From positions 1-62,931 of the IMG/VR virus record IMGVR_UViG_3300017782_000013: DNA of 62,931 nt; one strand, given 5' to 3'. The position numbers and the translations under genes were made by a program. The notes below the pieces were generated by a model. The model searched no databases and was not told where the DNA came from. It was given only the letters and a program-made list of their open reading frames with translations. Positions 5,741 to 52,469 of this stretch are shown piece after piece (position 1 is the stretch's first letter; each line of letters opens with the position of its first letter). This DNA is from a virus (taxonomy: Duplodnaviria; Caudoviricetes).

Positions 5741-6138
5741 GAAGGCTTCCTAACCACAACTACAAACTCTTTCAGAATATCCACACCTGGTGGAAACTTA
5801 TCAGGGTTCTCTTCAAGAAAAGTTTTTATATTACTTTCGTGAACTCTAGTTTGTAACAAACCTATTTCTCCAGTTTCTAAAACAAACTTATTAAAACTGT
5901 GTTTGTCATTCACAATATGCCTTTGTTTTATAGACCTCACGATTGTGCCACTTTTTGTCTTGATAGAACTACAACCTATCTTTTTACAAAGTGCCAACGC
6001 TTGTTCATCTAAGGCTCTTTTCTTTTCAGTAATAAGATTTACTTTTTTATCACAATCAGCTTTGATGTTTCTAATAGCTGTATTACATAATCTGATTTGT
6101 TCAGATAACTCTTCTGCCGTAGCTTCTTTCTTGCTCAT
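5737..6138 (-). CDS. Conserved phage hypothetical protein (coiled coil + SIKTKSGT; loosely Gam-like)
   Basis: 133 aa, coupled to the downstream gene; ends in PPGV...VVRK. Confidence 0.7.
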   Translation of the reverse strand: MSKKEATAEELSEQIRLCNTAIRNIKADCDKKVNLITEKKRALDEQALALCKKIGCSSIKTKSGTIVRSIKQRHIVNDKHSFNKFVLETGEIGLLQTRVHESNIKTFLEENPDKFPPGVDILKEFVVVVRKPS

Positions 6139-14858: not shown

Positions 14859-14884
14859 ATCTTATTTTATCATTTTGAGTAGAC

Positions 14885-14914
14885 AAAAAAAAGGCAACCA
14901 TTATCGGTTGCCTT
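14885..14914 (-). terminator. Intrinsic terminator ending the early operon
   Basis: Minus strand AAGGCAACC-GATAAT-GGTTGCCTT followed by a T run. Confidence 0.8.
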
Positions 14915-14925
14915 AAAATAAGCTG

Positions 14926-14941
14926 ACGGCAAGATTGCCGT
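14926..14941. promoter_or_regulatory. ACGGC-N6-GCCGT palindrome, copy 1
   Basis: ACGGCAAGATTGCCGT, intergenic; one of four copies. Confidence 0.65.
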
Positions 14942-15033
14942 TTGATAATTTAGCCGTTCATAGTTTTACAGAATATATATTTTGTAAGTATCTAGTTCGC
15001 TGCTGACATCAGCTACATAACAAAAATTACAAA

Positions 15034-32268: not shown

Positions 32269-33177
32269 ATGGCTATTTCAAGAGCACAATTACTTAAAGA
32301 ACTCCTACCTGGCTTAAACGCTTTATATGGTATGGAGTACGCACGTTATGGTGAAGAGCATAAAGAGATATACGAGACAGAAACTTCAGATAGGTCATTT
32401 GAAGAAGAAGTTAAGTTGTCTGGATTCGGTACTGCTCCAACTAAATCAGAAGGTGCAGCTGTAGAATTTGATACAGCACAAGAGGCTTTCACTTCAAGGT
32501 ATACACACGAAACTGTAGCACTCGGCTTTGCGATTACAGAAGAAGCAGTAGAGGACAATCTTTATGATAGTCTTTCAACTCGCTACACAAAATCGTTAGC
32601 TAGAGCTATGGCTTATACTAAACAAGTAAAAGCGGCTTCTACGTTAAATAATGGTTTTGATTCTAACTTTAAAGGCGGTGATGGCAAGGCTTTATTTGCT
32701 ACAGACCACCCACTAGTTAGCGGAGGGACAAACAGCAATCGTTTTGCTACAAATGCAGACTTGAATGAAACATCTCTCGAAGATGCAGTAATTCAAATTG
32801 CAGCTTGGACAGACGAGCGTGGTTTGTTAATCGCAGCTAGACCAAGAAAGTTAATCATACCTCCTGCTCTACAGTTTGTGGCAACACGAATTTTAGAAAC
32901 GGAAAAAAGAGTCGGTACTGCCGATAATGATGTTAACGCCCTTTCTACTAATGGAGCAATTCCAGAAGGGTACACAATTAACCATTATCTAACAGATACA
33001 GATGCTTTCTTTTTAACAACTGACATACCAAACGGATTGAAGCATTTTGTTCGTGCTCCGATGGCTACGTCAATGGACGGTGACTTTGAAACAGGTAACG
33101 TTCGTTACAAGGCTCGTGAGAGATATTCTTTCGGATTCTCTGACCCATTGGGAATGTTTGGCTCACCAGGAGCTTAA
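32269..33177 (+). CDS. Major capsid protein (HK97 fold, Mu gpT-like group)
   Basis: MAISRAQLLKELLPGLNAL...SDRSFEEE...RYTHET.AL...EDNLY...RYKARERYSFG. Confidence 0.92.
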   Translation: MAISRAQLLKELLPGLNALYGMEYARYGEEHKEIYETETSDRSFEEEVKLSGFGTAPTKSEGAAVEFDTAQEAFTSRYTHETVALGFAITEEAVEDNLYDSLSTRYTKSLARAMAYTKQVKAASTLNNGFDSNFKGGDGKALFATDHPLVSGGTNSNRFATNADLNETSLEDAVIQIAAWTDERGLLIAARPRKLIIPPALQFVATRILETEKRVGTADNDVNALSTNGAIPEGYTINHYLTDTDAFFLTTDIPNGLKHFVRAPMATSMDGDFETGNVRYKARERYSFGFSDPLGMFGSPGA

Positions 33178-33184
33178 TCGAGTA

Positions 33185-33201
33185 GGGGGCTTTATGCCCC
33201 C
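33185..33201 (+). terminator. Hairpin after the MCP (weak terminator or mRNA stabiliser)
   Basis: GGGGGC-TTTAT-GCCCCC with an offset T run. Confidence 0.5.
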
Positions 33202-33223
33202 TCACTCATTTTTGGAGATTAAA

Positions 33224-33364
33224 ATGGATTTGTTTTTTAAATTTACAGATTCTTGTATTAAACTTACCAAAGGTATAATTGACGCTAATACAGCAATAGC
33301 AAAAAAAGTGGTAGATTATTCTGAAAAGCCTTACAATTGGTTTAAAGATACAGTTAAAAAATAA
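33224..33364 (+). CDS. 46-aa amphipathic small protein
   Basis: MDLFFKFTDSCIKLTKGIIDANTAIAKKVVDYSEKPYNWFKDTVKK after GGAG. Confidence 0.65.
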   Translation: MDLFFKFTDSCIKLTKGIIDANTAIAKKVVDYSEKPYNWFKDTVKK

Positions 33365-33431
33365 CTAGGGTTAATTAGTCATACATACTGACCTAGCAGA
33401 CATATTAGAGATTGTATGACGAGTGCTAATA
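33365..33431 (+). ncRNA. Candidate structured cis-RNA with three interlocked helices
   Basis: CTAGG/CCTAG, GTCATACA/TGTATGAC and TATTAG/CTAATA in crossing order, ending 3 nt before the GGAG RBS. Confidence 0.5.
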
Positions 33432-33444
33432 CACGGAGATAAAA

Positions 33445-33876
33445 ATGGCATCAACGACATTTTCAGGCCCAATTAAAGCTGGAACAGTTAAAGAAGGGTC
33501 TTCAGTAAACGTAGGTTCAGTAGTAATGGCTCAGTCAGCAGTAATTGATATTATTGGTGCAACCAATAGTGCTACTGTAGCTACAGTACCCGCTAATTCA
33601 CAAATTATAGACGTTATTTTAAACGTATCTACAGTTAGTAATGATGGCGGTGCAGCGACTGTTAAAATCGGTACAGGTACAGATGATGATGAGTTTCTTG
33701 CGGCTACTAACGTAAAGGCTGTAGGGACAACTCGTGGAACTATAGGTGCTGAAGGAACTGACGTAGGTTCTTCTGATTTATCTGTTAGTTATACTTTTAC
33801 TGGGGCAAACGGTAACGGCACAACAGGTGCGGCTACAGTAACAGTCTTATATATTCAGAACAACAACCTTTCATAA
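33445..33876 (+). CDS. Virion structural/decoration protein (MA.TTFSGP family)
   Basis: MASTTFSGPIKAG...VPANSQI.D...G.ATVTV.Y.Q. Confidence 0.72.
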   Translation: MASTTFSGPIKAGTVKEGSSVNVGSVVMAQSAVIDIIGATNSATVATVPANSQIIDVILNVSTVSNDGGAATVKIGTGTDDDEFLAATNVKAVGTTRGTIGAEGTDVGSSDLSVSYTFTGANGNGTTGAATVTVLYIQNNNLS

Positions 33877-33886
33877 GGAGTAGTTC

Positions 33887-34207
33887 ATGGGAGATGTTAA
33901 ATCAGCTAGTAATTCCAGTGGCCTTAATTCAGCAGAAACAGCACAGCTTGTACCTGTAGGGCAAAGAACTAGACTAAGAAGTGTCTTACTTTCTGGGCCT
34001 ACTTGTCAGATAACTTTTTTAAATGGTTCAGCAGGCGGTTCTGGTTCTGTTTTTAATATAATATCTGACTCAAATGGTTCAGGAGGGCCGTTTCAATTAT
34101 CAATACCCGGTGATGGTGTTTTATTTGATAATGGAATAGGACTTTTAGTAAAAAGTGCAGATAGTACCTTTAAAACAGGAAGTGTAACTATTTTCTACGA
34201 AGGGTAA
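33887..34207 (+). CDS. Small beta-rich virion protein
   Basis: RLRSV...IPGDGVLFDNGI...SVTIFY. Confidence 0.72.
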   Translation: MGDVKSASNSSGLNSAETAQLVPVGQRTRLRSVLLSGPTCQITFLNGSAGGSGSVFNIISDSNGSGGPFQLSIPGDGVLFDNGIGLLVKSADSTFKTGSVTIFYEG

Positions 34208-50509: not shown

Positions 50510-52469
50510 ATTAAAAATAGCACCTGGAATAGATAAGCAAAATACTGAGTATGGTGCTGAAGGTCGATGGATTGATTGCGATAATGTTCGATTTAGATAT
50601 GGTAAAGCCGAAAAAATAGGAGGTTGGGAAAAATTTTTCGGTCAAGTTAAAGCGTCTGACCCTAGCCAAAGTGCAAAATTTGTCGGTCGTATAACAAACA
50701 TGATTTCTTGGGTTTCAAATAGTGGTTCTCCTTTTATAATAATAGGAACATCTAAAAAATTATACGCATACAATGGCGGTAACTGGGGTGATATTACTCC
50801 TCTTAGAAGTGTGAACGGTAGTTTTAGAGGTTGGGGTGCAGGGTTATGGAACAGGCAATCTTTTGCGGGACAAACAACAGCGTTTTCTACTACAAACGGT
50901 AGTAATGTAGTTACTGTTCATGTTAGTAATCACGGTATATTGATAGGTGATTTTATTACTTTAAGTGAACTAACTGGAGACCCTGGTGGGATTGCAAACG
51001 CTAATTTAGAAGGCGAGTTTGAAGTACAAGATGTAACAGGAATAAACACTTTTACAATTATAGCAAGAGCAAACGCTACTTCTACACAAAGCATACCTGT
51101 CGGTGCAGCTAATATAACATTTCAAATAAATGTAGGTACAGATGTAGGTTCTGTTGACTATGGTTGGAATGTGGGTTCTTGGAATGAAGGCTCTTGGAAT
51201 ACGGCTAGGTCAGTTTCAGCTAATGTAATAGAACCAAGGGTATGGCAGTTTGATTTATATGGAGAAGACGTAATATGTAATTTAATAGGAGATAGGCTGT
51301 ACTTATTTAATACTAGTTCAGGTATAAACTCCAGAGCAACCGAAATAACAGATGCTCCAGCGGCAACAGAATTTTTTATAATGGCCCCGACTTCTAGGCA
51401 ACTAATATGTTTAGGAACGGATTCCACAGTTGGAGATAGTGCAACACAAAACAAAATGCTATTAAGGTTTTCTGATATAGAAGGTCTTAACACAACAACG
51501 TCTTCAACTTTTGATGCAATTACTAACACTAGTACATTTACCGAAAAAGTAGAAAATTTTGCAGGTGCTATACGATTAACAGACGGAAGTAAGATAATGA
51601 CTGCTGTTAAGTCAAGAAACCAACTAATTGTTTTAACAGATACCGCAGCTTACGGTTTGCAATTTGTAGGCGGTACTCAAGTTTTTGCTTCTCAACAATT
51701 AGGAGCTAATTGCGGGTGTGTTGCTCCGTTAGCTGCTGTTGAAGCAGGTGGTATTACATATTGGATGTCTAAAGATTCGTTTTATATGTTTGATGGTACT
51801 GTTAAAAAATTACCTTGCACAGTAGAAGATTTTATTTTTGATAATTTAAACTTTACGCAATCTCATAAATTTCATGTTGGTCTAAACTCAAAGTTCAATG
51901 AAATTACATGGTGGTACACAACCACTAATTCTGACTATATAGACAGAATGGTTACATATAATTATTTAGAAGGTATTTGGTCTGTTGGTAGTTTATCTAG
52001 GACGGCTTGGGTAGATTACGGGTCTTTTGAAAACCCTATAGGGGCTGAATTTTTACCAACCGATAGCTCAGATACTTTAACTGACATACAAAGTTTATCA
52101 AATGGTAGAAGCGTGTTATATACGCATGAAAAAGGTGTGAATAACGAAAATCAACCTATTACAGCTTTCATACAATCAGGTTATTTAGATATTGCTGATG
52201 GAAATAGCGTTTCATTTGTTCGTAAATTTGTGCCTGATTTTAAAAACCAACAAGGTAACTTAAACATACAATTATTAACAAGGGTTTACCCAAATGCTCA
52301 AGCAAAAGTTAGCGTTACAGATTTGCATGATATTAGCCCAACTACGGAGAAAGTTGACACAAGGGCGAGAGGAAGACAAGTATCTTTAAAAATACAAAGT
52401 CAAAGTGTAGACACAACTTGGCGTATAGGAGATAACAGAATACTAATACAACCTGACGGATTAAGATGA
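50469..52469 (+). CDS. P22 gp10-like DNA stabilisation / tail nozzle protein
   Basis: PGID....Y.AEG.W.D.DNVRFR.G..EKIGGW...F.EI.W.Y...RARGRQ...PDG.R. Start may be TTG 50496. Confidence 0.78.
   Translation: MPLKLGYRLLNLSKLKIAPGIDKQNTEYGAEGRWIDCDNVRFRYGKAEKIGGWEKFFGQVKASDPSQSAKFVGRITNMISWVSNSGSPFIIIGTSKKLYAYNGGNWGDITPLRSVNGSFRGWGAGLWNRQSFAGQTTAFSTTNGSNVVTVHVSNHGILIGDFITLSELTGDPGGIANANLEGEFEVQDVTGINTFTIIARANATSTQSIPVGAANITFQINVGTDVGSVDYGWNVGSWNEGSWNTARSVSANVIEPRVWQFDLYGEDVICNLIGDRLYLFNTSSGINSRATEITDAPAATEFFIMAPTSRQLICLGTDSTVGDSATQNKMLLRFSDIEGLNTTTSSTFDAITNTSTFTEKVENFAGAIRLTDGSKIMTAVKSRNQLIVLTDTAAYGLQFVGGTQVFASQQLGANCGCVAPLAAVEAGGITYWMSKDSFYMFDGTVKKLPCTVEDFIFDNLNFTQSHKFHVGLNSKFNEITWWYTTTNSDYIDRMVTYNYLEGIWSVGSLSRTAWVDYGSFENPIGAEFLPTDSSDTLTDIQSLSNGRSVLYTHEKGVNNENQPITAFIQSGYLDIADGNSVSFVRKFVPDFKNQQGNLNIQLLTRVYPNAQAKVSVTDLHDISPTTEKVDTRARGRQVSLKIQSQSVDTTWRIGDNRILIQPDGLR

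What the first reader, a model, noticed from the sequence alone, without database searches (positions are those of the whole stretch)
33365..33445. Candidate double-pseudoknot RNA in the leader of a capsid-associated gene
Seen: the 80-nt gap is almost entirely three perfect helices in crossing order. P1 is CUAGG 33365-69 / CCUAG 33392-96, P2 is GUCAUACA 33378-85 / UGUAUGAC 33413-20, and P3 is UAUUAG 33403-08 / CUAAUA 33426-31, with ACUGA, CAGAC and AGA joiners. It ends 3 nt before the GGAG RBS. I cannot match it to the hammerhead, twister, pistol, HDV or SAM-V consensus. Inference: an undescribed riboswitch-like, ribozyme-like or protein-binding element that sets decoration-protein stoichiometry, or a nuclease-blocking knot.
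Basis: partly seen in the sequence, partly recalled or inferred. Interest (0 to 1): 0.75.

Follow-up and report, generated by a model that had tools for sequence, protein, structure and literature searches.

The report
Conserved double-pseudoknot leader of cement gene
A 67-base stretch of RNA just ahead of a phage capsid 'cement' gene folds into a three-helix knot that is preserved by matching paired mutations in hundreds of marine and lake phage sequences and matches no catalogued RNA family, so it is probably a new gene-control element whose trigger is still unknown.

Summary
P1 (33365-69/33392-96), P2 (33378-85/33413-20) and P3 (33403-08/33426-31) are exactly where stated. Single-sequence statistics were suggestive but not decisive: three other places in the record score as high. 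Comparative data settle it. The invariant core ACUGA-N5-CAGAC recurs in 198 unique elements from public phage contigs, nearly always just upstream of a homologous gene. The 5-nt loop segment covaries perfectly with the upstream 5-mer: 110/110, 38/38, 34/34, 8/8 and 2/2 for five pair classes. On a structure-blind MAFFT alignment of 104 sequences, 88.5% of cells pair against 63.3% shuffled, and the covariation score is 0.647 against 0.198 (0/500 shuffles). The topology is an intramolecular kissing hairpin (ABaCbc), 66-70 nt long, ending 11-18 nt before the AUG. Rfam 15 has no match. The gene encodes a jellyroll capsid cement protein. The function is inferred, not shown: a cis-acting leader that controls translation or stability of the cement mRNA. 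Its trigger could be protein, ligand, self-cleavage or none. The cultured Phage DSL-LC04 carries the motif, so it can be tested.

The parts
33365..33431 (+). Whole RNA element (67 nt): intramolecular kissing-hairpin / double pseudoknot, P1-P2-P3 in the order A B a C b c
   Evidence: helices; covariance model R1 scores 78.6 bits at 33363-33447; the next best hit in the record scores 11.1 bits; covariation.
33365..33369 (+). P1 5' arm, CUAGG
   Evidence: the upstream 5-mer always complements the loop 5-mer (CTAGG/CCTAG 110/110, CTAGC/GCTAG 38/38, CTGGG/CCCAG 34/34, CTCGG/CCGAG 8/8, CTTGG/CCAAG 2/2). TTAGG/CCTAA in L291 and L390.
33370..33377 (+). A/U-rich spacer between P1 5' arm and P2 5' arm (8 nt here; 5-13 nt in 103 of the 104 long-type relatives, one mis-parsed value of -2)
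33378..33385 (+). P2 5' arm, GUCAUACA
   Evidence: 8 of 8 P2 pairs change on both sides; 92.7% of cells pair; in L660, of the window's own lineage, GUCACACA/UGUGUGAC is a compensatory change.
33386..33391 (+). Junction U-ACUGA; ACUGA is invariant in the family
   Evidence: invariant columns A25 C26 T27 G28 A29. It was also part of the search pattern, so the invariance is partly by construction.
33392..33396 (+). P1 3' arm, CCUAG
33397..33402 (+). Linker CAGAC-A between the two hairpins; CAGAC is invariant
   Evidence: In relatives L081, L089 and L252, G replaces A33402 and extends P3 to 7 bp.
33403..33408 (+). P3 5' arm, UAUUAG
   Evidence: 4 of 6 P3 pairs change on both sides. examples: TAGTAG/CTACTA, GTAGCAG/CTGCTAC, TTGTAG/CTACAA, ACATGC/GCATGT.
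33409..33412 (+). Junction AGAU (family consensus AGAC/AGAU)
33413..33420 (+). P2 3' arm, UGUAUGAC
33421..33425 (+). Junction GAGUG (most often GAUGUG in relatives)
33426..33431 (+). P3 3' arm, CUAAUA
33435..33438 (+). Shine-Dalgarno GGAG, 3 nt after P3 and 6 nt before the AUG
33445..33876 (+). Downstream gene: 143-aa capsid cement (decoration) protein with a jellyroll fold
   Evidence: AF2 mean pLDDT 79.9. Foldseek matches 7eel_H (cyanophage Pam1 capsid, E 9.8e-6), 7dn2_1 (phage KHP30 capsid), 8h89_J (phage GP4 capsid) and 7dou_4 (trimeric cement protein of KHP40); the homologue in Phage DSL-LC04 is annotated 'cement protein'.
33349..33354 (+). Weak candidate -10 hexamer TACAGT, 10 nt upstream of P1 (TACAAT in L001); not a consensus promoter
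   Evidence: One search shows the sequence. One search found no + strand sigma-70 consensus promoter in 33000-33700. In relatives the best -10-like hexamer ends 6-8 nt before P1 in 86 of 185 contexts.
33224..33364 (+). Small ORF (46 aa, own GGAG RBS) inserted between the capsid-gene terminator and the knot; its stop codon abuts P1
   Evidence: tblastn finds a homologue only in L001 (56% identity). L160 has the identical knot without this ORF.
33184..33202 (+). Intrinsic terminator-like hairpin after the major capsid gene
32269..33177 (+). Major capsid protein gene (HK97-type)
   Evidence: phrog_371 at 8e-25; PF25209 at 1.2e-12

Best explanation
SHOWN. Bases 33365-33431 encode a member of a large, previously uncatalogued family of structured RNAs. 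The fold is an intramolecular kissing hairpin. P1 and P3 are two hairpin stems. P2 is an 8-10 bp helix between their loops. Written linearly this is a double pseudoknot (A B a C b c). Invariant junctions (ACUGA, CAGAC, AGAC/U) flank the covarying helices. The element is on the sense strand, occurs once in this complete 62.9-kb phage record, and ends 11-18 nt before the start codon of a jellyroll capsid cement-protein gene in all but one of the 104 long-type sequences measured (30 nt in one). It typically follows the terminator of the major capsid gene.

INFERRED. It acts in cis, after transcription, to set how much cement protein is made, working at the ribosome-binding region and/or the mRNA 5' end. 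The fold's 3'-most helix always abuts or overlaps the Shine-Dalgarno sequence. This holds for P3 here, for a covarying SD hairpin in the 'short' subtype, and for a direct loop-to-SD pairing in a sister leader class. In about half of the contexts a -10-like box places the transcript start at P1.

My most likely specific mechanism (about 35-40%) is a translational operator read by a trans-acting protein. One candidate is unassembled cement protein, or another late protein, recognising the three GAC triplets that the knot displays. The trigger is not established.
For: Structure:
- 198 unique elements; the loop 5-mer and the upstream 5-mer are complementary in 110/110, 38/38, 34/34, 8/8 and 2/2 cases for five different pair classes. 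The upstream 5-mer was never part of any search pattern.
- on a MAFFT alignment of 104 unique long-type sequences, 88.5% of cells pair against 63.3% shuffled. The covariation score is 0.647 against 0.198 (0/500 shuffles) and 0.06-0.15 for slid partners. P2 covaries at 8/8 pairs, P3 at 4/6, P1 at 3/5.
- in the short subtype (74 sequences) 93.4% of cells pair and P2 covaries at 8/9 pairs.

RNA on this strand: in P2 there are 58 G.U against 11 A.C cells.

Selection: the leader is 74/74 identical in L160, where the cement CDS is 320/453 identical and the capsid-gene 3' end 238/300 identical.

Gene link:
- 117 of 120 exact-core hits have CTAGG upstream, and by my reading of the listing they lie before an ATGG start of the cement-like gene.
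- There is one copy in the record.

Link to the ribosome site:
- P3b to AUG is 11-18 nt in 99 of 104.
- The SD hairpin covaries in the short type.
- In sister class C, 20 pairs are 100% paired in 34 sequences, and loop CCUAG/CCUAA pairs with C/UUAGG of the SD (GC 28, AU 6).
- L195 has the canonical core but its CUAGG partner sits at the SD.

5' end: the best -10-like hexamer ends 6-8 nt before P1 in 86/185 contexts, and 124/183 have a terminator-like hairpin within 90 nt upstream.

GAC triplets: 2.9-4.0 per 70-nt leader against 0.7-1.6 expected, in all seven leader classes.

Protein.
Against: - There is no experimental evidence of any kind.
- In the window's own subtype the folded knot leaves GGAG unpaired, so simple SD occlusion is not the mechanism here.
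- The knot is optional. Among the 160 closest cement-gene loci, only L001/L081, L089 and L160 (78-79 bits) and L155 and L157 (32-36 bits) carry it. The others use other leaders, including class A, which has no evident hairpin.
- An identical leader sits in front of cement proteins only 66% identical. This argues against tight co-evolution with the protein and weakens the autogenous-feedback version.
- The cement protein has no recognisable RNA-binding domain: no Pfam hit and a jellyroll fold.
- In this window no consensus promoter precedes P1, so here the element is probably internal to a read-through transcript, not 5'-terminal.
- Covariation shows each helix is selected. It does not show that all three form at the same time.
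- The GAC enrichment could reflect shared ancestry or a tertiary core rather than protein recognition.
Confidence: 0.6

Rival explanations
1. Self-contained stabiliser or enhancer. The knot is a constitutive tertiary fold that ties up the mRNA 5' end (P1) and blocks 5'-end-dependent decay or RNase scanning. It may also offer a ribosome standby platform next to the SD. This would give the cement gene capsid-level expression downstream of the capsid-gene terminator. The junction nucleotides would be conserved for folding, not for a partner.
For: - A -10-like box ends 6-8 nt before P1 in 86/185 contexts, so P1 would involve the first transcribed nucleotides.
- The terminator, then promoter, then knot architecture is common: 124/183 have a terminator-like hairpin and 74/183 have both.
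- The leader is interchangeable between divergent cement genes and is optional, as expected of a generic module.
- The SD is left free in the window's subtype.
Against: - In the window and in 22/183 contexts with a T-run <=12 nt upstream and no -10-like box, the element is not at a primary 5' end.
- Ten-plus invariant unpaired nucleotides and strict association with one gene family are more than a generic stabiliser usually shows.
- Sister class C and L195 pair the same loop with the SD, which points to translational control.
Confidence: 0.27
2. New riboswitch class. The knot is an aptamer for a small molecule or ion that reports host state, and P3 or the SD hairpin is the expression platform.
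For: - The conservation pattern is typical of riboswitches: covarying helices around invariant junction nucleotides, compact size (66-70 nt), pseudoknotted, next to the SD.
- Three different 3' 'platform' designs sit on one conserved core.
Against: - It is associated with a single structural gene family, not with metabolic or transport genes.
- There is no match to any riboswitch model in Rfam 15.
- No alternative pairing that would toggle the SD was found in the window's subtype (my inspection).
Confidence: 0.1
3. New small self-cleaving ribozyme. It would process the capsid-cement transcript, for example by cutting at or near the 5' edge of P1.
For: - A double-pseudoknot architecture with an invariant core is typical of small ribozymes (recalled knowledge of the twister, HDV-like, pistol and hatchet classes).
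- The family has a sharp 5' boundary at P1. It begins either at an inferred transcript start or <=12 nt after a terminator T-run in 41/183 contexts.
- Position -1 is never G (0/185).
Against: - There is no Rfam ribozyme hit, even at E<=10 or at E<=1 in 15 other loci.
- The topology (ABaCbc) differs from HDV-like and twister (recalled).
- Where a promoter is placed at P1, cleavage would be superfluous.
Confidence: 0.1
4. RNA polymerase-modifying (put-like) antiterminator, or another transcription-level element, that lets late transcription proceed past terminators downstream of the capsid gene.
For: It lies directly after an intrinsic terminator and at the head of the remaining structural genes.
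Against: - The distance to the cement AUG is constant and short, and the helices engage SD-flanking bases.
- There is no gap or terminator after the cement gene in the window.
Confidence: 0.04
5. Not an RNA structure: chance inverted repeats, or a DNA-level protein-binding or promoter element.
For: - Three other places in the record reach the same single-sequence score.
- The nested MFE is ordinary.
- P1's 5' arm lies where transcription would start.
Against: - Compensatory changes occur in all three crossing helices.
- G.U is tolerated far more than A.C in P2 (58 against 11).
- The orientation is fixed relative to the gene.
Confidence: 0.01

Closest known systems
Bacteriophage T4 gene 32 mRNA leader pseudoknot (autogenous translational control)
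   Same: A pseudoknot at the 5' end of a phage mRNA leader, upstream of the RBS of one gene whose level must be matched to demand. Like this motif, it has no Rfam model; that statement comes from passages of PMC10690425 seen.
   Different: T4's is a simple H-type knot (recalled), and its partner is a single-stranded nucleic-acid binding protein. Here there are three crossing helices, an invariant ACUGA...CAGAC core, and a jellyroll cement protein with no known RNA-binding activity. I have no sequence comparison with T4, because no T4 leader sequence was fetched.
E. coli alpha-operon (S4) and rpsO (S15) leader pseudoknots
   Same: Pseudoknotted leaders at the ribosome-binding site that set translation of an assembly component by binding the free protein (recalled knowledge). 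The alpha-operon leader is also a double pseudoknot.
   Different: Those folds include the SD and AUG themselves. Here the SD is outside the knot in the window's subtype. No Rfam hit to Alpha_RBS or any ribosomal leader was found at the motif.
Pseudoknot riboswitches next to the SD (SAM-II/SAM-V, preQ1-II/III, fluoride, guanidine-III)
   Same: Compact pseudoknots with invariant junction nucleotides immediately upstream of, or including, the SD. Some occur in marine bacteria and phages (recalled).
   Different: No covariance-model match. The topology is a kissing hairpin rather than H-type. The gene context is a capsid protein.
Small self-cleaving ribozymes with pseudoknots (twister, HDV-like, pistol, hatchet, hammerhead)
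   Same: The size class, the pseudoknots, the invariant core and the frequent occurrence in phage and metagenomic DNA (recalled).
   Different: No Rfam match even at permissive thresholds. The helix order is different. Catalysis is untested.
Anonymous candidate structured RNAs from IMG/VR (Fremin, Bhatt and Kyrpides 2023, PMC10690425)
   Same: The same data source (IMG/VR intergenic regions) and the same kind of evidence (covariation). Their 8,495 'DNAVirus_X' candidates could include a nested part of this motif.
   Different: The abstract, the passages and section 2.4 that I read mention no cement or decoration-gene leader and no pseudoknotted model of this kind. Their gene links relied on known protein domains, which this gene lacks.
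Sister leader 'class C' of the same cement-gene family (found here)
   Same: The same position and the same A B a C b c order, with a covarying 8-bp central helix and a loop containing CCUAG...AGAC.
   Different: Its CCUAG pairs downstream with the CUAGG that overlaps the SD, not with the 5' end. Its first helix (ACUAUAC/GUAUAGU) never varies, so it is unproven. Model R1 scores it at only 11-15 bits.

Membership tests
The new family itself (cement-gene leader knot, defined here) | Core ACUGA-N5-CAGAC, with N5 complementary to a 5-mer 13-30 nt upstream (P1) | tested here: met
   Window: CUAGG 33365-69 / CCUAG 33392-96. Family.
The new family itself (cement-gene leader knot, defined here) | P2: 7-10 bp between the segment just 5' of the core and the segment after AGAC/U | tested here: met
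   Window P2 is 8 bp. Family: 8/8 pairs covary.
The new family itself (cement-gene leader knot, defined here) | Long subtype: P3 of 5-9 bp (6-8 bp in 97 of 104), crossing P2 and ending 11-18 nt before the AUG of a cement-like gene | tested here: met
   Window P3 is 6 bp and ends 13 nt before the AUG. R1 scores 78.6 bits.
Any Rfam 15 family (4227 models, including hammerhead, twister, pistol, hatchet, HDV-like, SAM-II/V, preQ1, fluoride, Alpha_RBS) | Covariance-model score at or above the gathering threshold | tested here: not met
   0 hits in the whole window. No hit overlapping 33365-33445 at E<=10. No hit on the motif in 15 other loci at E<=1.
tRNA / tmRNA-like element | ARAGORN-detectable cloverleaf | tested here: not met
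   0 genes in 33100-33600
Self-cleaving ribozyme (any class) | Site-specific self-scission | not testable with these tools
   Needs a bench assay. Only contigs, not raw reads, were available for RNA runs.
Riboswitch (any class) | Ligand-dependent conformational change that alters expression | not testable with these tools
   Needs in-line probing and reporters. The gene context (a capsid cement protein) is atypical.
T4 gene 32-type autogenous operator | The gene product is a nucleic-acid binding protein that binds its own leader | tested here: inconclusive
   The product is a jellyroll cement protein with no Pfam domain. RNA binding was not tested.
Exoribonuclease-resistant RNA (xrRNA-like) | A ring-like fold around the 5' end that stalls a 5'-3' nuclease | not testable with these tools
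   No 3D prediction or nuclease assay was available. No Rfam hit.

The most novel reading that the evidence does not exclude
The knot is the sensing or catalytic core of a wholly new functional RNA class. Two versions are open.

(a) A riboswitch or a small self-cleaving ribozyme carried by hundreds of aquatic phages.

(b) An operator whose three junction GAC triplets (each 'GA' unpaired plus a 'C' that opens a helix strand) are read by the trimeric cement protein itself. Free, unassembled decoration protein would then shut off its own translation. That would be triplet-repeat recognition by an oligomeric protein, applied to capsid stoichiometry.
Probability: 0.3. Interest if true: 0.93.

Novelty: new variant of a known kind. 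Interest (0 to 1): 0.82.

Why it matters
Structured leaders with this quality of covariation and with invariant junction nucleotides have repeatedly turned out to be riboswitches, ribozymes or protein operators. This one is abundant: 332 parsed instances and 198-220 unique sequences came from capped scans. It spans marine and lake phages, and it is tied to one structural gene. If it is regulatory, it would show how tailed phages match decoration-protein supply to capsid production downstream of the capsid-gene terminator. That step has almost no known mechanism. Its small size (66-70 nt), its three independently testable helices and its presence in a cultured phage (DSL-LC04) make it directly testable. 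It is also an attractive target for RNA structure determination, because an 8-10 bp intramolecular kissing helix with GA-rich junctions is unusual.

Tried and rejected
- **Nested folding.** The MFE is -11.8 kcal/mol with z = -0.11 on the + strand, and z = -0.57 on the - strand. This is uninformative because the fold is pseudoknotted.
- **Rfam and tRNA.** Rfam at the gathering threshold and at permissive thresholds found nothing on the motif. The weak hits lie elsewhere, for example on terminator-like hairpins. ARAGORN found nothing.
- **Other P1 positions.** Variants at P1 positions 2 and 4 (loop A9 or C7 changed) gave 12 and 4 hits, none a true element. The suffix I added to cut chance hits would miss some subtypes, so this is a weak negative.
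- **Mini-stem around the P3 3' arm.** GUG/CAC flanking that arm is not consistently supported. The CUG/CAG flanks of the P1 3' arm are invariant, so they cannot be tested.
- **Loop-to-SD switch.** I looked for an alternative pairing of the loop 5-mer with the SD region in canonical members and saw no consistent complement (inspection). It exists only in L195 and in class C.
- **Weak model hits.** R1 scores of 11-15 bits on class B and C leaders were not counted as membership.
- **Bacterial and archaeal genomes.** The scan gave 16 stretches, 12 of them true elements on MAG contigs. I drew no host inference, because phage contigs are often mis-binned.
- **Sequencing runs.** Only Logan contigs were available. 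In one metatranscriptome run, a 519-nt contig lies on 33164-33682 without differences. It may be DNA carry-over, and contigs cannot show starts, ends or strand. It therefore neither supports nor refutes a transcript start or a cleavage at P1. Parts without cover mean nothing.
- **Earlier notes of this scan.** None concern this element.
- **Literature.** Searches that returned nothing relevant: 0 papers each; listings only, nothing on this motif. For PMC10690425 I read the outline and abstract, passages and section 2.4. Its supplements, which list all candidates, were closed.
- **PHROG label.** The weak 'Rz-like spanin' hit for the downstream protein (1.2e-5) was rejected in favour of the structural matches to cement proteins.
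- **Not used.** Complex prediction was not used, because it cannot take RNA.
Full report
**The observation**

- P1 is CUAGG 33365-69 / CCUAG 33392-96.
- P2 is GUCAUACA 33378-85 / UGUAUGAC 33413-20.
- P3 is UAUUAG 33403-08 / CUAAUA 33426-31.
- P3 ends 3 nt before GGAG (33435-38). The AUG is at 33445.

The order of the arms is A B a C b c. That is the topology of an intramolecular kissing hairpin: P1 and P3 are hairpin stems and P2 is a helix between their loops. The loops are 22 nt and 17 nt, large enough for this.

**Chance, from the single sequence**

None of 3000 dinucleotide shuffles of the 80 nt gave three crossing perfect stems totalling 19 bp or more. Eleven of 3000 gave any three non-overlapping stems that long, and 95 of 3000 gave a stem of 8 bp or more. 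Among 12,571 80-nt windows of the record, four places reach 19 bp or more (5871; 14881-91; 33356-61; 51826). The nested minimum free energy is unremarkable (z = -0.11). The sequence alone was suggestive, not decisive.

**Context**

- The window is a complete 62,931-bp virus record.
- Upstream lies an HK97-type major capsid gene at 32269-33177 (phrog_371 at 8e-25, PF25209).
- A terminator-like hairpin follows at 33184-33202, then a 46-aa ORF at 33224-33364 whose stop codon abuts P1.
- Downstream is a 143-aa protein with no Pfam match.
- An AlphaFold2 model built from 27 homologues has mean pLDDT 79.9 and is a beta-sandwich.
- Foldseek matches it to capsid chains of cyanophage Pam1 (7eel_H, E 9.8e-6), H. 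pylori phage KHP30 (7dn2_1) and Ralstonia phage GP4 (8h89_J), and to the 'trimeric cement protein' of KHP40 (7dou_4).
- The homologue in Phage DSL-LC04 is annotated 'cement protein'.

**Relatives found through the protein**

Back-translated searches with the cement protein found 417 relatives in viral contigs and 244 in metagenome contigs. The best 80 of each were fetched. Their leaders fall into several classes.
- Only five distinct contigs carry the window's type. These are L001 = L081, L089 and L160 (78-79 bits with my model) and L155 and L157 (32-36 bits, a shorter subtype).
- L160 was the key lead. Its leader is 74/74 identical to the window, while the cement CDS is 320/453 identical and the capsid-gene 3' end 238/300 identical.
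- L155 and L157 keep CUAGG upstream and ACUGACCUAGCAGAC in the loop, but have a different, still complementary, P2.

**Relatives found through the RNA core**

Of these, 117 have CTAGG upstream. By my reading of the listing (not a script count) they also have a complementary P2 and a following ATGG start of a gene encoding MA.(S/T)TF.GP. The exceptions are two chance hits (L257, L274) and one informative variant (L195).

Two architectures appear.
- The long type, to which the window belongs, has P3.
- The short type has a local SD-containing hairpin in place of P3.

**P1 tested without any alignment**

The core pattern fixes the loop, so I searched with exclusion codes that forbid the usual base at one loop position. 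The upstream arm was left unconstrained.

In 198 unique elements, defined by the core plus a cement-like N-terminus, the loop 5-mer and the upstream 5-mer match as follows:

| Loop 5-mer | Upstream 5-mer | Matching / total |
|---|---|---|
| CCUAG | CUAGG | 110/110 |
| GCUAG | CUAGC | 38/38 |
| CCCAG | CUGGG | 34/34 |
| CCGAG | CUCGG | 8/8 |
| CCAAG | CUUGG | 2/2 |

In addition, CCUAA occurs with UUAGG (L291 and L390) and UCUAG with CUAGG as a G.U pair (L434). All four Watson-Crick pairs therefore occur at P1 position 3, two at position 5 and two at position 1, which means at least five separate double substitutions. No true variants were found at positions 2 and 4. That is a weak negative, because the suffix I added would miss some subtypes.

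**All three helices on a structure-blind alignment**

I aligned 104 unique long-type sequences with MAFFT (A1) and scored the window's own P1-P3 on that alignment.
- 88.5% of 1956 cells form standard pairs, against 63.3% after shuffling partners (0/500 shuffles reach this).
- The covariation score is 0.647, against 0.198 shuffled (0/500) and 0.06-0.15 when partners are slid by 1-3 columns.
- P2 changes on both sides at 8 of 8 pairs (92.7% paired), P3 at 4 of 6 (83.4%) and P1 at 3 of 5 (87.8%; MAFFT shifted the 5' arm in some rows).
- In P2, G.U cells outnumber A.C cells 58 to 11, as expected for RNA read from the + strand.
- In the window's own lineage, L660 has GUCACACA/UGUGUGAC, a compensatory change.
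- L081, L089 and L252 extend P3 to 7 bp through a G at the position of A33402.

The short subtype (74 sequences, A4) gives 93.4% paired. P2 covaries at 8 of 9 pairs and the SD hairpin at 3 of 6.

**Anatomy of the family**

- In the long type the element is 66-70 nt from P1 to P3 in 88 of 104 sequences.
- P2 is 7-10 bp and P3 is 6-8 bp.
- The P3 3' arm ends 11-18 nt before the AUG in 99 of 104.
- The invariant nucleotides are ACUGA before the P1 3' arm and CAGAC after it. AGAC/U before the P2 3' arm is nearly invariant.
- A covariance model built on P1 + P3 scores 78.6 bits at 33363-33447. Nothing else in the record scores above 11.1 bits with filters off, so there is a single copy.

**What lies upstream**

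- Over 185 unique contexts, the best -10-like hexamer ends 6-8 nt before the first base of P1 in 86. A uniform null would give about 25.
- 109 of 183 have a hexamer with A2, T6 and at least 4/6 matches ending 5-10 nt before P1.
- 124 of 183 have a terminator-like hairpin within 90 nt, and 74 have both.
- 41 begin 12 nt or less after a T-run, 22 of these without a -10-like box.
- Position -1 is never G (0/185).

The commonest layout is therefore capsid gene, terminator, promoter, knot, SD, cement gene, with the transcript inferred to start at or next to P1. Some copies must be internal to read-through RNA. This includes the window, where no consensus promoter is found and a small ORF precedes the knot.

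**Clues to function**

(i) The 3'-most helix always touches the ribosome-binding region.
- In the window, P3 ends 3 nt before the SD.
- In one CCCAG subgroup, the P3 3' arm UUUGGUAAG runs into AAGGAGG.
- In the short type, a covarying hairpin holds the SD.

(ii) A sister leader class C sits in front of cement genes about 70% identical to the window's and has the same A B a C b c order. Its 20 proposed pairs are 100% paired in 34 unique sequences. The central helix covaries at 8/8 pairs. The loop CCUAG pairs with the CUAGG that overlaps the SD, and CCUAA goes with UUAGG in 6 sequences. L195 combines the canonical core with a CUAGG placed at the SD.

(iii) GAC triplets are over-represented in the last 70 nt before the AUG in every leader class, folded or not: 2.9-4.0 per leader against 0.7-1.6 expected. 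GAC is first to third in excess among all 64 triplets wherever a class has at least two unique leaders, and tied third-to-fourth in the single class E leader. In the knot, each GAC is a 'GA' left unpaired plus a 'C' that opens a helix strand.

(iv) The knot is optional among close relatives and is exchanged between divergent cement genes.

**Interpretation**

What is shown is a real, strongly selected, sense-strand RNA fold tied to one gene. That it acts in cis on cement-protein output, at the level of translation initiation and/or mRNA stability, is an inference from position and from the SD-contacting helices. I put it at about 0.6-0.7.

Within that, my estimates are:

| Mechanism | Estimate |
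|---|---|
| Operator read by a protein | about 35-40% |
| Self-contained stabiliser or enhancer | about 27% |
| Riboswitch | about 10% |
| Ribozyme | about 10% |
| Transcription-level roles | about 4% |

- The protein-operator model has precedents in assembly-linked feedback, which I recall from the literature: T4 gp32, P22 scaffold, and ribosomal proteins S4 and S15. The GAC triplets and the trimeric nature of cement proteins suggest recognition of the triplets by the trimer.
- Modular exchange of the leader and the lack of any RNA-binding signature in the protein count against the autogenous version.

**Comparison with what is known**

- Rfam 15 has no match at the gathering threshold in the window, none at E<=10 over 33150-33650 that overlaps the element, and none at E<=1 on the motif in 15 other loci.
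- ARAGORN finds nothing.
- Full-text searches for the core sequence, and for cement or decoration-gene leaders, pseudoknots and phage RNA motifs, found no description.
- The nearest prior work is the IMG/VR-wide screen of Fremin et al. 2023 (PMC10690425). I read its outline and abstract, passages and section 2.4. It lists 8,495 unnamed candidates. The main text does not mention this motif.

I file this as a new variant of a known kind, a pseudoknotted mRNA leader. There is a real chance (about 0.3) that it founds a new functional class.

**Testability**

The cultured Phage DSL-LC04 (GenBank OR003939, lake water, host listed as Gammaproteobacteria) carries a canonical long-type copy between its 'major capsid protein' and 'cement protein' genes. 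Roseobacter phages CRP-901 and CRP-902 carry a different leader, class D. The experiments that would decide between the models are listed under decisive next steps.

Noticed in passing
window 33224-33364: A 46-aa ORF with its own GGAG RBS sits between the capsid-gene terminator and the knot. tblastn finds a homologue only in L001 (56% identity). L160 has the identical knot directly after the terminator without this ORF. It looks like an insertion.
   Followed up: partly
L007, L014-L031 and others (34 unique leaders, alignment A3): Sister 'class C' leader of homologous cement genes, with the same A B a C b c order. Its central helix covaries at 8/8 pairs, and loop CCUAG/CCUAA pairs with the C/UUAGG that overlaps the SD (GC 28, AU 6). 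Its first helix, ACUAUAC/GUAUAGU, is invariant and may instead be promoter DNA.
   Followed up: partly
leaders of L001-L160 and of the canonical set (70 nt before the AUG): GAC triplets are enriched about 3-fold in every leader class, folded or not: 2.9-4.0 observed against 0.7-1.6 expected. In the knot each GAC is 'GA' unpaired plus a 'C' that starts a helix strand.
   Followed up: partly
short-subtype loci, e.g. L186:3697-3780 (alignment A4): In place of P3, a 6-9 bp hairpin immediately before the AUG carries the SD in its loop and 3' arm (AUUUCC/GGAAAU, AUUAAG/CUUAAU, AUUUUUUC/GAAAAAAU). It covaries at 3 of 6 pairs.
   Followed up: partly
L144, L145, L150; L644 1240-1300 and L645 (Roseobacter phages CRP-901/902): In the class D leader, a 5' AAUCCCUG appears complementary to the SD region CAGGAGAUU with one bulge. 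A variable hairpin lies between two GACs. This was read by eye only.
   Followed up: no
L002, L011, L029 and others (class A); L008-L010 and others (class B): Close cement-gene relatives use quite different leaders. Class A has a terminator followed by CCCAAGACUUAAAACGAC and no evident hairpin. Class B has a TTGCAA-17-TATATT promoter and then a hairpin whose loop holds CCUC, complementary to the SD. Leader modules seem to be swapped between related phages.
   Followed up: no
window 5871-5950, 14881-14970, 51826-51905: Three other 80-nt windows contain three crossing perfect stems totalling 19-21 bp. They were not examined further.
   Followed up: no
position -1 relative to P1 in 185 contexts: The base before P1 is never G (T 117, A 56, C 12, G 0). 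A G there would extend P1 by pairing with the C of CAGAC, so the extension seems to be selected against.
   Followed up: no
window 33887-34207: The next gene encodes a 106-aa Gly/Ser-rich protein with only a faint PHROG hit of unknown function. It may be a second capsid accessory protein.
   Followed up: no
L646-L661 (genome contigs): 12 of 16 hits in bacterial or archaeal MAG assemblies are true knot elements on contigs binned to very different phyla. Most likely these are phage contigs mis-binned into MAGs.
   Followed up: no
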